Source: an uncultured Nitrospirales bacterium
GTDB lineage: Bacteria; Nitrospirota; Nitrospiria; Nitrospirales; NS-4
DNA length: 64,000 nucleotides
Reading direction: 5' to 3'
NCBI GenBank assembly: GCA_964472655.1
Contig: CAYYLQ010000005.1
Coordinates: forward strand, 1 to 64,000
Shown here one piece after another: positions 18,001-27,000 of this stretch. Position 1 is the stretch's first letter. Each line of letters starts with the position of its first letter. Position numbers: made by a program.

Positions 18001-21000
18001 TTGTACGCTTTTGTTCACACTATGTGACGCCGCTTGGCGCCCTCCAAAAAGCTTTTTCGAGCAAAAGTGAAGAAAAATTGATAAGATAGACCCCCTTTGC
18101 CTTCTGATACCCCTATCTCGCCCCATGGGGCAGGGATGACTGTCATGGAAAGAGCGTGCCAACAAAGCAGCAAATACCGGGACGTACTTAAGCCTAGCGC
18201 CAGGCTGCACCATGGACTTCTCCGCCCACCTGATGCCATCGGAACGAGCCAACTCCATGGGAAATACAGGAAATCAGGCACCAGAATTGCTGACATTCCC
18301 CTTTCCCGATCCCGGAAACGGGATTTCGCCGGTCGACTCCCATGACTTGGAGGACGTCACGCGTGCCCAACACCCCGCCAGCCCACCCAGATCGGCGCCG
18401 ATGGACCCGGGTGGAGACTACCGCACCGGCTCGGCTCAGCCGCAATGGGACTGCCTGGGAAGGCCTGGCGCGAAACCTGAGCCGGGGCGGCACCTTCATG
18501 ACGTTTGCCCGGAACGTCTCCGCGACGGAAAACCAACCGATCCAATTGGGCCTCCAGACCGACGCGGGGTTGTTGGAGCTGAAAGGGACGATCCGGAGCC
18601 TCAGGGAGATTGGAGAGGAACCTTCGGCCGCCGCCGATGCGGTGCAGGGTCTCGCCGTTGAATTCGAAGCGCTTGATGCGATCAGGGAACAGATCCTCAT
18701 TTCCATTCTGGATGCCCTGCGCGAGCGAGCCGTGTCCGTCAGGCTCGTGGGACTCCTCGTTCCCCAGGACACGGGGGACCTCCTCCTTGAAATCAGCGCC
18801 GCCGGGGCCGAACCGGTCGAACCCGCGGAAACCCTTCCCGACGCCACCGAGGAAGGCGCTCCAGACGCGCCGGCGGTCAGCAGCCGGCCGGTCGAATGCT
18901 GCAATCCCCTCGGCCGCCGCATCGCCGCGTACCACGACGCGCCTACCGAGCCGACTCCGTCCGCCCCGCTCGTGGTCATTGCGCCCGGCTACGGCGACAC
19001 CAAGAAAGAGTACGTTCCCCTGGCCTATTACCTTGCCGGCAACGGGTTTCACGTCCTCCGCTATGACCACACGAACCACGTGGGCGAAAGCGAGGGCGAC
19101 ATCGCAGACGCGACCCTGTCCGGCATGGAGCAGGACCTCGGCGCCATACTGGACTATGCGAGCCGGACCTGGCCCGGCGCCCCGCGCGCGGTGATCGCCA
19201 CCAGCCTGTCGGGACGTGTCGCCTTCAAGAGCATGGCGCGAGCGCCCCAGGCGGAATTGTTGGTGCTGCTCAGCAGCGTCGTCGATCTGCAAGCAACGCT
19301 GGCCGCGGTCCATCAGGAAGACCACATGGTGGCCTTCCTACGGGGCGGCAGGCTCGGCGTGATGAACGTGCTCGGGTTCAACATCGACGCCGACCGCTTC
19401 CTGGGCGACGCGATCAAGGCGGGCTACGCGACGCTGGCCAACACGCTGCAGGATGCCCAGCAGATCCGGACGCCCGTCATCTTCTTCGCCGCGGAGCATG
19501 ACGCGTGGGTGGCACTGGAGTCGGTGAAAACGGTCCAGCAGGCCCTCGGCGGCGGGCGGGTCCGCGTGTATCTCATTCCGGAAGCCCTTCACCGCGTGCA
19601 GGAGAATCCGAGAAAGGCCCGCGCAGTCTTTCGGCGGCTCGTCGCCTGCTGTCTGGAACAACTCTCACCCGAGGCGCCGGTGCGGACCATCCTGGATCCC
19701 TCCAGGCGCGCGATCGGCCTTCAAAGCCGGCTTGAACGCGAGCGGGCGCGGGCGCACCATCACATGGCGAAGACCGACATGGTTGAGTTTTGGAGGGATT
19801 ACCTCGATAATTTCCACTATATCGCCAACGTTTCCGACTATTGGCAGCTTCTCGACCACATCTACCGCATGGCCGGAAGCCTCAATGGAGGGATGCGGCT
19901 CCTGGACGCCGGGTGCGGCAACGGGAATTTCGGCATGTTCCTGCTGATCAATCAGGCCTATCGTCTCCGGAACGGCGCCGTGCAAGGCGCCGAACCGATC
20001 CGGTACGTGGGCGTGGATTTCATCCAGCCGGCGCTCGCCAACGCCAGGCTCAACCTCGCAAGAACGGCCGCCGAGATCCGCGGACGGTTTGCCTTGTCCG
20101 CTGCAATGCCACCCTTGCCGATGGACTTCTCGTTGCTCGCCGCCGATCTCAACATGCCGCTGCCGTTCCGGGACGGCCAGTTCGATCGGATCGTCTGCAA
20201 CCTGGTCATCGGGTACCTTCAGGAACCCTCGTTTCTCATCAAAGAATTTCTGCGGGTGTTGTCCCCCGCGGGGAGGCTGATCATCACGAACCTCAAACCC
20301 CATCCCGACCTGTCACAAATCTATCGCAACTTCGTTCTGAGCACCGACCAACTCGAGGAATTGCAGGAAGCCAGGCACTTGCTGAACAATTCAGGTAAAA
20401 TCATCCAGGCGGAAAGCAACGGCGTGTTTCGTTTCTTCGACCGGCAGGAACTGGCGATGCTGCTACTTGCAAACGGAGCGGCTCAGCCCCGGGTGTACTC
20501 CACGTTCGCCAACCAAGCGTACCTGGCGGCGGCGGACAAGGCCGCCCCCATGCCCGAGGCCCGCGCCACCCATCTCGCCGCCGGCCTCAGGCCGCAGGGC
20601 CCGGTCATCCAGGCATGAACTTCTACGCGCTCAGCGGCCTGTTCAACGCCATCGCCGCGACCACGCTGGGTTTCTTCATCTACTCGCGGGCCCCCCGCGA
20701 CCCCAAGCACCAGACGTACGCGCTGTTCTGTCTCAGCGTCTCCATCTGGAGCTACTTCTACTTCGCGTGGCAGCTGGCGCAATCGCGGGATCTCGCGCTG
20801 CTGTTCGTCCGCCTCCTGATGGCGGGAGCGATCCTCATTCCCATTTTCTATTTCCACCACGTGCTGATCCTGCTAGACCGCGTCCGGCGCCACCGAACCA
20901 TGCTGAACGTCGGCTATGCGCTGGCGGGAATCTTCCTCATGGCCGACGCCACGCCCTTTATGGTGCGCGACCTTCAACCTGAGATGGCGTTCCCGTATTG

Positions 21001-24000: not shown

Positions 24001-27000
24001 TTCGAGCGGGAACTGCTTCAGGAAGCGTTGACGCGGACCGGCTACGTGCAGACCCACGCCGCAGCCATGCTGGGCATCACCAGGCGCATGCTCAAATACC
24101 GGATGGACGCGCTGGGTATCAGAGGCGCCGAGGCACAACCTTCGACGGTCCCCAAGGACCCCGAATAAATGGCCGGCGCACTGTCCATTTTTGTGCGCCA
24201 GGGAGAATGTTTCAGCCTTGCTAACATGGGCAAATCTTATTGGTAGATAAGGGGTTTTATCGCCTCGCCGGGATGGGTTGTAGACCGCCCTGCGCTGTTC
24301 ATTTACGGGCTAGGATTTCAAGGCTGGATGTGGTGTAATGGGCCCCTCGGCAAGCTCGCTTCAAGATTTTGTGTCTTTGCCCAGGTGGGTCGCAGGCCAT
24401 GAGCTTTCATGGTGACGGTATGGGTGTTGCATTACCCGCCATTACGGAACGTGGGAGACCTGAGGATTCGCGTATGAAGGTCGAGACTCCCCGGATCAGC
24501 GTCCCTGACGAACGGAAGGCCCCCCAGACGCCCGGCACTTCGTCCAAGCCGTCCATCCTCATCGTGGATGACGAGGCCGGCCCTCGCGAAGCTCTGAAGA
24601 TGATCCTCCGTCCGTTCTTCAATATCCATGCGGTGGAGAGCGCCGCGGCGGCTCAGCAGGTGCTGAAAGAGTGCAAGATCGACGTGGTGACCCTGGACCT
24701 CAAGCTCCCGGACCGGCAGGGGACGGACCTGCTGCAGGAGATCAAGCGGGACCAGGAACACGTGGAAGTCATCATCATCACCGGCTACGGGAGCCTGAAG
24801 TCCGCTATGGACGGGATCCGGTACGGAGCCGCGGGCTACCTGCTGAAGCCCTTCAACGTCATGGAACTCATTGACGTCGTCACGCATGCGCTGGAGAAGA
24901 AGCGCCGGCTCGACGGTCTGCGGGAAATCCTCCGCACGTTCGGGAACGTGTGCGACGCCGACGTCGATGCCGAGACGGCATGGAAGAATCTCGCGCGCTC
25001 GCTCGAAGCGAAGGATCCGGACCTGGTCCGCCACGCGGAACGCGTGTGTTTCTACTCCTCGCTCCTGGCGGAGCACCTGACGCTCAAGTCGGCGGACCGC
25101 GAGGCGCTGCGGGTCGGTTCGTGGCTGCATGACATGGGCATGGTCTGCCTCGACAGCCGGATTCTGTCGAACTCAGCCCAGCTCGACCCGCGGAACCCCG
25201 AACTGGTCAAGTGCCATCCGGCCATCGGCGCCCGCATCGTGCATACGCTCCCGTTCCATCCGGCGGTTGGCGACATCATCCGCCACCATCACGAGCAATA
25301 CGATGGGGCCGGCTACCCGGACGGCCTGAAAGGCGAAGACATCCCCTACCTCGCGCGAGTCGTCTCTCTGGCCAATGTGTTTGACGACCTGACCACCCCG
25401 CAGCCCGACCGCGTTCCCCTCTCCATCGAAGACGCCCGGACGTTCGTCCAGCAGCAGGCCGGAACCCTCTTCGATCCGCTCCTGGCCGAGATGTTCGTGA
25501 AAGTGGTCGGATAGGGCTTTTCTGCTTCGCGTCCCGCCAGCTCCGCACGCGGCGAGACGCAGCACTCTGACTTGTCCTGAAACGCAGCCCTGCTCTTAGT
25601 CTTTCACGCCGCGCGAGAGGGTCCCGAAATACCACACATTAAGGTCATTCGTGATCTTTTGAACGGCCACCACATCGTTCGGCTGAAAGAGCGCGCGCAT
25701 CGAATGCCATGTGAACGCATTTTGCTGGTAGAAAGCCATATGGCGATACCGCTCGAGATCGTCAGAAAGAAGAATCAAGACGGCATCTGACGTGTTGTTG
25801 AGGTACTGGGACACCTTGATCAGATCCTGACGGTTGTCCATTAAGTCTTCCGCTACTCTTTCTCCCAGATCAGGCCGCCCATACTTCGATGCTATTTCCA
25901 CGGACGCCTTCACGATTTCCTTGCGGGGAGGGTTGGCGAGATTTTTTTCGTTCAGCTGTTTCACGAGATGGCTCACGCAGCTGCTGAAAGGGCTTTTCTC
26001 GCCTAATAATGCTTTATTCTTGTCGACGTATTGAGGAAGGTTATCAGGATATGCCGACATCATGGCAGAGATAATGGCAACGCGTTTCCAGGTGTCGGGA
26101 TCGCACTTCGCGGCGCCCAGCGAAACCGCGGGAGGAAAACACAGAAACAACACCAAAATCGTCTTGGCTATTCTCATTTTTTCAGCAATCCTCCGTTAAG
26201 AAGCCTCTTCAATGACGTCAAGCAAGGCGACGACGGCTCTACTTCGTTTCCTGCCAGGTGCGCACGCGGCGGGACTGCAGCACCCCGTCAATCTTTTCGA
26301 CGGCCTTCAGCACGCGGTCCAGGTGGGCCGTATTCTGCACTTCCACGATGAAATCGAAGAGAGCCTTGCGGTCCTCCCGCGTCGTGATCTCGGCCCGGCT
26401 GATGTTCGCCTCCGCGTTGGTGATGGCCGCCGACACGTTCGCCAGCATCCCCGGCTTGTCGAGGGTCAAGACGGCGATCTTGACGGACACCATGGCCAGG
26501 TGCGCCATGTCCCAATCCACCTCCACAAGCCGCGCCTTGTCGTAGTCGAGCGCGTCCAGGTTGGGACAGTCCGCCGTGTGAATCGTCAAGCCGCGGCCGC
26601 GGGTGATGTAACCGATGATCCGATCGCCCGGCACCGGGCCGCAGCACCGGGACAGATGCATCATGAGGTCGTGGACGCCCTTGACCTTGACGCCCTTTTC
26701 CTCGACTGAGACCCGCTTGGCGGCCGCCTTCTCCTCCACTTCCGCGGCGACAGCGGCGGCAGGCGGCTCATCCCCTGCGGCACAGAGACGATTGGCGACG
26801 TGGATGGCGGACACGCGGCCATAGCCGATGGCCGTGAATAATTCGTCCGGGCCCGGCAGGCCCGACTCCCGGGCGGCGTCCTGGACGCGGGACGTCTTGA
26901 GTAGCGGCCCCAGGGCGGCATTGTGGCGGCGGAGTTCCCGTTCCAGCAGCCGCTTGCCGACCTCCAGGCTCCGTTTGGCTTCTTCCACACGGAGCCAATG

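What a model noticed while it worked through the whole genome (the two positions that open the first line are those of the whole stretch)
18363..25514. PilZ-LuxD-methyltransferase fusion: candidate fatty acid methyl ester signal synthase
One ~750-aa chain joins a PilZ domain, a LuxD-type acyl-ACP thioesterase with its Ser/Asp/His triad and a SAM methyltransferase, directly before a 7TM histidine kinase, a sigma54 activator and an HD-domain response regulator. It likely releases a fatty acid from ACP and methylates it under c-di-GMP or phosphorelay control, making a diffusible methyl-ester signal read by the adjacent two-component system. This would be a new signalling system in Nitrospira and a single-polypeptide FAME synthase for the bench.
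Evidence so far: Domains: Acyl_transf_2 E 9e-28, methyltransferase E 5e-12; PilZ in the 751-aa full form and relatives, with REC/PAS added in longer forms. Aligns to LuxD 1THT (E 9e-20) with SLSGR, EHDAW and ALHR in register. 394 proteins at E<=1e-40; source names shown point to Nitrospirota. The kinase follows in 17 of 18 loci, the activator in 13 and the HD regulator in 11, many loci being cut by contig ends. Kinase and activator match PrsK/PrsR models below cut-off. Paper search call 93 found nothing relevant.
(Added by a program. Inside this text positions count along the whole contig: contig position 1 is position 1 of the stretch shown here. "Call 12" and the like, gene names such as g00115 and contig names such as C1 are that model's own, and its searches are not shown. 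The text may have been shortened before it was handed on; [...] marks where a part breaks off. The agent that wrote the report below was given it as the finding of a first reader that could run no searches.)

Follow-up and report, generated by a model that had tools for sequence, protein, structure and literature searches.

The report
Methyl-ester signal synthase with matched receptor
This nitrifier-group gene fuses a fatty-acyl-releasing enzyme domain to a methyl-adding domain and sits directly before a membrane sensor whose sensing part changes whenever the enzyme is swapped, so the pair likely makes and detects an undescribed fatty-acid methyl ester signal, though no product has been measured.

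Summary
A 751-aa ORF (18363-20618) joins PilZ, a LuxD-type hydrolase with Ser/Asp/His in register and a class I SAM methyltransferase. It precedes a HisKA_7TM kinase, a sigma54 activator and a REC-HD-GYP gene, behind a conserved sigma54-type box.

New support for a synthase-receptor pair:
- The close 7TM sensor occurs in 23 of 301 genomes, the same 23 that carry the Ser-intact near-clade enzyme; Ser-to-Asp copies have sensor-less kinases.
- Related 7TM kinases follow other lipid or small-molecule enzymes (14 of 20 loci), and the sensor tracks the enzyme rather than the kinase core.
- The enzyme is interchangeable with Phc-type parts: distant relatives precede PhcS-like sensors, and PhcB-like methyltransferases precede 7TM kinases.

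Corrections: the family is not Nitrospirota-only; PilZ is accessory; the HD-GYP looks degenerate; about a fifth to a quarter of relatives lack the serine. The methyl acceptor is unresolved and nothing is shown biochemically. Ten paper searches found no description. This scan found the same family earlier on other DNA.

Verdict: it likely works like Phc/Rpf signalling but is not a member of either. New variant of a known kind; interest 0.75.

The parts
18275..18291 (+). sigma54-type -24/-12 promoter box (GG-N10-GC) in front of the operon
   Evidence: One of 9 sites scoring >=6.5 in the 2.17-Mb genome on my own score of a recalled consensus; conserved in 4 of 4 aligned intergenic regions; p<0.05 in 14 of 27 loci whose enzyme has no REC/PAS against 1 of 24 with REC/PAS; rpoN present. 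Predicted, not mapped.
18363..20618 (+). PilZ-LuxD-type hydrolase-SAM methyltransferase fusion, 751 aa (Ser281, Asp380, His410; SAM motif DAGCG 515-519)
18390..18710 (+). PilZ domain with intact RxxxR (RRWTR) and NxSxxG (NLSRGG) motifs
   Evidence: Pfam; R12 and R16 in 107 of 107 aligned relatives with residues there; motifs as defined in bioRxiv 10.1101/814665, passages
18924..19631 (+). LuxD-type alpha/beta hydrolase (Acyl_transf_2) domain
   Evidence: E 6.7e-28, only copy found in the genome; 1THT best by sequence and by fold
19680..20546 (+). class I SAM methyltransferase domain with N-terminal linker helices
   Evidence: acceptor not resolved
20615..22765 (+). HisKA_7TM-GAF-HisKA-HATPase sensor kinase, 716 aa, start overlapping the fusion's stop; predicted receptor
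   Evidence: only HisKA_7TM found in the genome; sensor tracks the partner enzyme
22762..24168 (+). REC-AAA+-HTH sigma54 activator, 468 aa
   Evidence: follows in 13 of 18 relative loci
24474..25514 (+). REC-HD-GYP (RpfG-type) regulator, 346 aa, probably catalytically degenerate
   Evidence: HHExxDGxGYP present; last metal-ligand Asp (recalled consensus) absent in 30 of 30 copies; start
17140..17955 (-). divergent REC-REC regulator; linked only in the three closest relatives, so a possible accessory part
   Evidence: beside the fusion in L001-L003 of 18 loci; sigma54-like box at 18146-18162 (-) conserved in 4 of 4

Best explanation
The gene encodes a PilZ-LuxD-type hydrolase-methyltransferase fusion that likely cleaves an acyl chain from acyl-ACP and likely methylates the freed acid, giving a predicted fatty-acid methyl ester signal that the adjacent seven-helix sensor kinase would detect. 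Shown: domain order, catalytic triad and SAM motif residues, operon layout, co-occurrence of enzyme and sensor, and sensor change on enzyme swap. Inferred: acyl-ACP as substrate (from LuxD); carboxyl methylation (from interchange with PhcB/PhcS-type parts); release and uptake of the product (FadL beside some relatives); kinase-to-sigma54-activator phosphotransfer and positive feedback on the sigma54 box (autoinduction); tuning of the enzyme by c-di-GMP through PilZ, from the cell-wide pool rather than the operon's own HD-GYP. Dead Ser-to-Asp copies with REC/PAS and sensor-less kinases are read as a derived, non-catalytic branch.
For: Triad: Ser 90 of 119, Asp 120 of 120, His 111 of 120 near relatives; SAM D/G/G 120 of 120; Ser 114 of 145 among 150 cluster representatives. 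LuxD best by sequence and fold. Ser state against 7TM in 48 loci: 28 Ser with sensor, 18 no Ser and no sensor, 2 no Ser with sensor, 0 Ser without sensor. Of 25 scorable metagenome loci, 21 Ser with a multi-TM next gene and 4 Asp without. The close 7TM occurs in 23 of 301 genomes, all 23 with the Ser-intact near-clade enzyme, and in 0 of 31 genomes with only distant or TE-less copies. 14 of 20 weaker 7TM loci have another lipid or small-molecule enzyme directly upstream: KASIII, acyl-ACP-reductase-like, aldehyde dehydrogenase, HMG-CoA-reductase-like, diiron oxidase, KAS, PhcB-like MT, several PilZ-fused. With kinase core >=60% identical to the window's, sensor identity is 43-91% in 16 TE-MT partners and 27-35% in 7 swapped partners. 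Partner state needs 2 changes on the sensor tree and 9 on the core tree, 30 rows. Sensors beside 9 distant TE-MTs match a kinase whose 90% cluster is named PhcS (67 bits; 200 shuffles <=5.8). Three MTs upstream of 7TM kinases match a PhcB-named protein (E 1e-20 to 2e-29), and one of their sensors (L189) falls in the TE-MT sensor clade (97/97). FadL beside L059, L071, L072, L075; esterase near L092, L095; START-fused forms. PhcB makes methyl esters from the cognate fatty acids and RpfF is an acyl-ACP thioesterase (PMC7912708 passages).
Against: No product, substrate or ligand has been measured. The MT fold hits are generic: C-, N- and O-methyltransferases all at E about 1e-11. The MT is only distantly like the PhcB-named protein (24% over 140 core columns; 6.9% probability against L189). 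The Ser/sensor co-loss rests on about 2 changes in the tree, 1-2 independent pairs, not significant. L011 and L012 lack the Ser yet keep a 7TM kinase, and L012's sensor is 62% identical to the window's. Two PhcB-like partners (L179, L181) have sensors outside the TE-MT clade. Adjacent genes co-occur by linkage alone, thresholds were set after seeing the data, and tree rows were picked by likeness to the window's sensor. The core tree used the last 270 residues, which is not the core in long hybrids and inflates the 9. PhcB/PhcS names are automatic annotations. Orphan sensors in the same clade sit behind HAD hydrolases (L176-L178). Monoacylglycerol lipases and esterases are close fold hits. The HD-GYP looks degenerate.
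Confidence: 0.55

Rival explanations
1. It is a synthase-receptor pair for a lipid signal, but the product is not a simple methyl ester: the LuxD domain transfers the acyl chain to an acceptor and the methyltransferase adds an O-, N- or C-methyl elsewhere.
For: All pairing evidence applies equally. MT hits are mixed in chemistry. LuxD is also an acyltransferase (family names; promiscuous acceptors recalled). An acyl-CoA dehydrogenase gene lies upstream of L057-L059.
Against: Distant relatives use PhcS-like sensors and PhcB-like MTs can use this sensor clade. No conserved acceptor-supplying gene lies beside the fusion.
Confidence: 0.2
2. It is an intracellular or intramembrane lipid-status module: the enzyme changes a membrane lipid or acyl pool and the kinase of the same cell monitors it, with no cell-to-cell signal.
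For: REC, PAS and PilZ inputs make the enzyme a regulated output. Dead copies are kept in many genomes with a cytoplasmic GAF kinase, so a protein-protein role exists. No export gene is conserved.
Against: FadL-type outer-membrane channels beside 4 TE-MT loci and one swapped locus; sigma54 box fitting autoinduction; orphan receptors; homology to Phc-named parts.
Confidence: 0.13
3. The two domains act in opposite directions, as BioC and BioH do: the methyltransferase makes a methyl ester from free acid, the hydrolase removes it, and PilZ or REC sets the balance.
For: Esterases and monoacylglycerol lipases rank just under LuxD in fold search. MT-only partners exist (L060 lacks the hydrolase; L189, L179, L181), so the hydrolase is not needed for pairing. 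Weak BioC hits.
Against: The LuxD-specific elbow (xSLS/AxR, no GxSxG) and RYDxxxHVGxSxG are conserved. Loss of the serine goes with loss of the sensor, as expected if the hydrolase is needed to make the ligand. Separate esterases lie near some loci.
Confidence: 0.09

Closest known systems
Phc system (PhcB methyltransferase, PhcS kinase, PhcR/PhcQ; 3-OH-PAME/3-OH-MAME)
   Same: SAM methyltransferase encoded directly before a membrane sensor kinase and response regulators; fatty-acid methyl ester signal (PMC7912708, PMC11298618, PMC6989110 passages). Distant TE-MT relatives use a sensor homologous to a PhcS-named kinase, and PhcB-like MTs occur before 7TM kinases.
   Different: The window's MT is a different family (24% over the core only) and carries its own LuxD-type hydrolase and PilZ. 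Its kinase has a HisKA_7TM-GAF input with no match to the PhcS-like sensor (4.5 bits, within shuffles). The output is a sigma54 activator.
Rpf/DSF system (RpfF, RpfC, RpfG)
   Same: An acyl-ACP thioesterase as signal synthase, a transmembrane kinase and a REC-HD-GYP regulator in one cluster (PMC7912708 passages).
   Different: RpfF is an enoyl-CoA hydratase-type enzyme making cis-2-unsaturated free acids; no such domain here. A methyltransferase is fused in. The HD-GYP looks degenerate.
LuxD myristoyl-ACP thioesterase/acyltransferase (PDB 1THT, PF02273)
   Same: Best sequence and fold match; triad and nucleophile elbow in register.
   Different: 97.8 bits against NCBIfam cut-off 420. Fused to PilZ and an MT. 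No lux genes beside it; genome-wide only two weak LuxC-model matches, E 3e-5 and 2e-4, over under half the model.
PrsK/PrsR (PEP-CTERM system kinase and activator)
   Same: 7TM-GAF-kinase followed by a sigma54 activator.
   Different: Both below cut-off, and AtoS/AtoC models score higher; partner genes are lipid enzymes.

Membership tests
LuxD (lux fatty acid reductase transferase subunit) | alpha/beta hydrolase fold with Ser-Asp-His triad and non-GxSxG elbow | tested here: met
   Triad geometry in the model could not be measured.
LuxD (lux fatty acid reductase transferase subunit) | whole-protein equivalog score | tested here: not met
   97.8 bits vs 420 (NF052253); 96.2 vs 529 (PRK13604)
LuxD (lux fatty acid reductase transferase subunit) | stand-alone subunit in a luxCDE context | tested here: not met
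   Fusion protein; neighbours are signalling genes; only weak partial LuxC-model matches elsewhere. LuxE was not searched.
LuxD (lux fatty acid reductase transferase subunit) | acyl-ACP cleavage activity | not testable with these tools
   Needs an enzyme assay
Phc quorum sensing (PhcB/PhcS) | PhcB-family methyltransferase | tested here: not met
   Against a PhcB-named Paraburkholderia protein: 24% over the Rossmann core, blastp E 3e-5, hhalign E 1.3e-6; true family members score E 1e-20 to 2e-29. The Ralstonia protein itself was not available.
Phc quorum sensing (PhcB/PhcS) | PhcS-type membrane sensor | tested here: not met
   The window kinase has HisKA_7TM, 4.5 bits on the PhcS-like profile. 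Met by distant relatives' kinases (67 bits to a PhcS-named kinase).
Phc quorum sensing (PhcB/PhcS) | methyltransferase gene directly before a sensor kinase and regulators | tested here: met
Phc quorum sensing (PhcB/PhcS) | 3-hydroxy fatty acid methyl ester as signal | not testable with these tools
   Needs GC-MS and a receptor assay
Rpf/DSF | RpfF enoyl-CoA hydratase-type synthase | tested here: not met
   No such Pfam domain in the fusion or its operon
RpfG family (REC-HD-GYP) | REC plus HD and HHExh(D/N)GxGYP motifs | tested here: met
   motif from bioRxiv 10.1101/2021.11.05.467447 section 5
RpfG family (REC-HD-GYP) | full metal- and c-di-GMP-binding set for phosphodiesterase activity | tested here: inconclusive
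   The Lys after HDxG is Met in the window; the last-helix Asp is absent in 30 of 30. The positions are recalled; the paper's table is an image I could not read.
canonical PilZ c-di-GMP receptor | [quoted passage not shown] | tested here: met
   RRWTR and NLSRGG in the window; motif. N/D at the second motif in 83 of 112 relatives.
canonical PilZ c-di-GMP receptor | c-di-GMP binding and control of the enzyme | not testable with these tools
   Needs a binding and activity assay; three GGDEF proteins are present in the genome
PrsK/PrsR | equivalog cut-offs | tested here: not met
   149.2 vs 300 and 439.1 vs 502.6
BioC | equivalog score and biotin-gene context | tested here: not met
   26.3 bits vs 185; no bio genes among the neighbours scanned

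The most novel reading that the evidence does not exclude
This is one member of an undescribed, widespread class of bacterial lipid signalling cassettes: a swappable, often PilZ-gated lipid enzyme (thioesterase-methyltransferase, KASIII, acyl-ACP reductase, aldehyde dehydrogenase, HMG-CoA-reductase-like, diiron oxidase or PhcB-like) encoded directly before a HisKA_7TM or PhcS-like receptor whose sensor co-evolves with it. Each enzyme would predict its receptor's ligand, giving the first ligands for HisKA_7TM, a chemical language for nitrifiers and several uncultured phyla, and a one-polypeptide route from acyl-ACP to a methyl ester.
Probability: 0.45. Interest if true: 0.9.

Novelty: new variant of a known kind. 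Interest (0 to 1): 0.75.

Why it matters
Fatty-acid methyl ester signalling is described for the Phc system; the reviews I read in passages name no other synthase family. If this reading is right, it extends such signalling to nitrifying Nitrospirales and several little-cultured phyla through an unrelated synthase architecture. It would also give a testable ligand class for the HisKA_7TM sensor, for which my search found only two papers naming the domain. The enzyme-sensor swaps give a ready panel of cognate and non-cognate pairs. A single polypeptide that turns acyl-ACP into a methyl ester would also be of use for microbial FAME production.

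Tried and rejected
Tried without result:
- Expression: no RNA holder listed.
- Rfam at gathering score over 17000-26500: no match.
- Shorter forms: 13 hits, mostly on short contigs or named partial; no clear stand-alone split gene.
- LuxI family in the own genome: no match, but the control was silent too, so uninformative.
- Methyl acceptor from structure: Foldseek and PDB profile hits are generic. 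The VIA-align second look was not obtained.
- The paper I recalled as defining MASE8 is not held; searches gave no ligand for it.
- Plasmid search with the core found only one lux-type acyl transferase.
- No complex prediction was run.

Considered and rejected:
- A lux operon, BioC, PrsK/PrsR.
- The acyl-CoA ligase at 13217-14923 as an RpfB analogue: linked only in L001 and L003 of 18 loci.
- The Ser/sensor co-loss as statistical proof: 1-2 independent pairs.
- The 1641-aa enzyme-kinase fusion in L014 as evidence: one MAG, frameshifted before the last MT strand.
- A c-di-GMP loop closed by the operon's HD-GYP: doubtful.

Rows left out of counts:
- L020, L021 (duplicates); L005, L010 (partial); L060 (no hydrolase); L013 and L057-L059 not scored for 7TM; L019, L039, L047, L056 not recovered by the script.
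- 30 of 80 loci examined; of these L061, L073, L077, L085, L086 were unscorable, and several others are near-duplicates of genome loci.
- L012 and L176 not scored.
- the 20 loci were hand-picked from the matches.

Full report
OBSERVATION. The ORF at 18342-20618 (+) is open for 758 codons. A GTG at 18363 behind a GGAGG gives the 751-aa protein found in the database as P0001. Pfam places PilZ, Acyl_transf_2 (E 7.7e-27) and a class I methyltransferase (E 1.1e-11) in that order. LuxD 1THT is the best solved relative by sequence (E 9.5e-20) and by fold of the AlphaFold model (pLDDT 85.8, pTM 0.75). The stop overlaps the start of a HisKA_7TM-GAF kinase, followed by a sigma54 activator and a REC-HD-GYP gene. 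In 18 relative loci these follow in 17, 13 and 12. The own genome (2.17 Mb, 99% complete) gave one match each for Acyl_transf_2 and HisKA_7TM, both here. The relatives named by sources are Nitrospirales.

CATALYTIC RESIDUES. Among 120 near relatives Asp380 is in 120, His410 in 111 and the SAM motif D/G/G in 120, but Ser281 is in only 90 of 119; the rest have Asn, Asp, Gly or Thr. Among the best 150 of 687 clusters at E<=1e-30, Ser is in 114 of 145. So the window copy looks active, while a large branch does not. A search of 301 genomes of the phylum shows a near clade (24 genomes, >=40% identity) and a distant clade of about 1,400-aa REC-PAS-PilZ proteins that have lost the triad and have a decayed SAM motif. 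Ten genomes carry both kinds.

RANGE. The family is wider than Nitrospirota. ESM Atlas lists 555- and 563-aa hydrolase-methyltransferase clusters commonest in Omnitrophota and Verrucomicrobiota. Source names add Omnitrophica, WOR-1, Aminicenantes and Deltaproteobacteria. Many forms are 550-580 aa, and some carry a START domain in place of PilZ. PilZ is therefore an accessory input, although its RxxxR and NxSxxG motifs are intact here (motif definition from bioRxiv 10.1101/814665, passages).

ENZYME AND SENSOR GO TOGETHER. In 48 scored loci, 28 have Ser and a 7TM kinase, 18 have neither, 2 lack Ser but keep the sensor, and none has Ser without it. This is only about two changes on the tree, so it is suggestive, not a test. 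In 25 scorable metagenome loci, 21 have Ser and a multi-helix next gene and 4 have Asp and none. From the receptor side, the window's 7TM domain matches at E<=1e-60 in 23 of 301 genomes. These are the near-clade genomes minus G230, whose copy has Asp; all 23 have Ser. None of 31 genomes with only distant or hydrolase-less copies has it. Linkage and kinship both inflate this.

THE SENSOR CHANGES WHEN THE ENZYME IS SWAPPED. Of 20 hand-picked loci with weaker or orphan 7TM matches, 14 have another enzyme directly upstream: HMG-CoA-reductase-like (3), acyl-ACP-reductase-like (3), PhcB-like methyltransferase (3), diiron oxidase (2), KASIII, KAS and aldehyde dehydrogenase, several fused to PilZ. Three follow a HAD hydrolase, two have no such gene and one is cut. 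L060 and L011 show the swap inside the same operon, with PilZ-KASIII or PilZ-aldehyde dehydrogenase between the fusion and the kinase. Among kinases whose core is >=60% identical to the window's, the sensor is 43-91% identical in 16 hydrolase-methyltransferase partners and 27-35% in 7 swapped partners. Partner state needs 2 changes on the sensor tree and 9 on the core tree, and the two KASIII partners group together across lineages (99/99). Against this: L012 has a dead hydrolase and a 62% identical sensor; rows were chosen by likeness to the window's sensor; and the core slice is wrong for two long hybrids.

LINK TO METHYL-ESTER SIGNALLING. The most distant relatives are followed by kinases with a five-to-six-helix, MASE8-like sensor. 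A profile of nine of these scores 67 bits on a Paraburkholderia graminis plasmid kinase (200 shuffles <=5.8). That kinase lies in a methyltransferase-kinase-regulator-regulator operon whose 90% clusters carry the names 'PhcS' and '3-hydroxypalmitic acid methyl ester biosynthesis protein'. Conversely, three methyltransferases before 7TM kinases match that PhcB-named protein (E 1e-20 to 2e-29). One of their sensors, L189, lies in the hydrolase-methyltransferase sensor clade (97/97); the other two do not. So the window's enzyme family and the PhcB family each occur with both receptor types. PhcB makes methyl esters from the cognate fatty acids (PMC7912708, passages), and a fused thioesterase would supply such an acid. 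The names are automatic annotations, and the window's methyltransferase is not itself PhcB-family. FadL-type channels lie beside L059, L071, L072, L075 and L173, esterases near L092 and L095, and acyl-CoA dehydrogenases before L057-L059. All point to a hydrophobic, mobile product.

REGULATION. A GG-N10-GC box at 18275-18291 is one of nine top-scoring sites in the genome on my own score of a recalled consensus, is conserved in four of four aligned regions, and recurs at p<0.05 before 14 of 27 enzymes without REC/PAS against 1 of 24 with them. rpoN is present. With a sigma54 activator in the operon this fits autoinduction, which is inferred. The REC-HD-GYP keeps HHExxDGxGYP (motif from bioRxiv 10.1101/2021.11.05.467447, section 5) but lacks a recalled metal-ligand Asp in 30 of 30 copies, and here also the Lys after HDxG. 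It may act without catalysis, as that paper describes for some RpfG proteins (passages). Three GGDEF proteins exist elsewhere in the genome.

MECHANISM AND ODDS. Most likely (0.55): the LuxD-type domain releases an acid from acyl-ACP, the methyltransferase caps its carboxyl, the ester reaches the 7TM kinase of the same or neighbouring cells, and the activator drives sigma54 promoters including this one. Rivals: a lipid signal of other chemistry (0.2), a cell-internal lipid-status module (0.13), or opposed methylation and hydrolysis (0.09). The acceptor is unresolved: structure searches return C-, N- and O-methyltransferases at similar scores. Every biochemical step is inferred.

COMPARISON AND NOVELTY. 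It works like Phc (methyl ester, kinase) and Rpf (thioesterase, kinase, HD-GYP) but fails the defining sequence tests of LuxD, PhcB, PhcS, RpfF, BioC and PrsK/PrsR. Ten full-text searches found no description; 'Nitrospira' with 'LuxD' gave 0 papers. The library lacks most subscription journals. Read as passages only: PMC13220807, PMC7912708, PMC11298618, PMC6989110, PMC5847659, bioRxiv 814665; passages plus section 5: bioRxiv 2021.11.05.467447. The primary PhcB papers were seen only as citations. I did not see the two preprints' supplements, which may list PilZ fusion architectures or the HD-GYP residue table. This scan noted the family before on other DNA; my synthase reading was entered, before those notes were shown. 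Class: new variant of a known kind, with a 0.45 chance that it marks a wider class of swappable lipid synthase-receptor cassettes. Interest 0.75.

Noticed in passing
L060:6433-7998, L184:5619-7160, L011:12964-15216, L183:5603-7285: PilZ-KASIII and (PilZ-)aldehyde dehydrogenase genes directly before 7TM kinases; candidate synthases of other lipid signals.
   Followed up: partly
L171:5882-7714, L172:6378-8090, L182:6341-8284: HMG-CoA-reductase-like proteins with a long N-terminal extension (weak PilZ in L182) directly before 7TM kinases; below the equivalog cut-off.
   Followed up: partly
L173:6021-7316, L175:6565-7452: Heme-oxygenase-like diiron oxidase (PilZ-fused in L173, preceded by FadL; a fatty acid desaturase follows the kinase in L175) before 7TM kinases.
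   Followed up: partly
L185:6892-7989, L186:6430-8196, L187:6338-8122: Acyl-ACP-reductase-like genes before 7TM kinases; a START gene precedes L185.
   Followed up: partly
L041-L055 and L022-L028: Dead ~1,400-aa REC-PAS-PilZ copies stay at one conserved locus with the sensor-less kinase, activator and HD-GYP; in one genus the intact copy sits elsewhere before a kinase with two 7TM repeats and no activator.
   Followed up: partly
L176:3073-5316, L177:2915-5134, L178:8321-10534: Orphan 7TM kinases 47-48% identical to the window's sensor, behind a HAD hydrolase and before a second kinase (PAS-containing in L176); possible second receptors for the same signal.
   Followed up: partly
L088, L092, L095 (about 9900-14600): Enzyme followed by a PhcS-like-sensor kinase-REC-HD hybrid and then a 7TM-GAF-GGDEF protein: opposed c-di-GMP enzymes with membrane sensors.
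   Followed up: partly
L014:9929-14854: Single 1,641-aa frame joining enzyme and kinase through a frameshift near the enzyme's end, with the kinase ATG read as CTG; one MAG, real fusion or assembly error.
   Followed up: partly
window 18146-18162 (-): sigma54-like box with TTCC in place of TTGC before the divergent REC-REC gene, conserved in 4 of 4; the window has a ~65-bp insertion between the two boxes relative to L001 and L002.
   Followed up: partly
window 10155-17021: Pilin-like, FixC-like flavoprotein, flavodoxin-like, acyl-CoA ligase, DUF192 and MscS-cNMP genes upstream; linked to the fusion only in the closest relatives.
   Followed up: partly
window 25596-26177 (-): 193-aa ORF with a signal-peptide-like start and no Pfam match, convergent with the operon.
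   Followed up: no
L191:5443-9818, L192:5947-8566: Plasmid-borne phcB/phcS-like operon in Paraburkholderia graminis, and a similar methyltransferase-sensor pair beside a Tn3 transposase in Pseudanabaena.
   Followed up: partly
L047:6220-10904: A dead-clade copy broken into pieces by a stop and frame changes.
   Followed up: no
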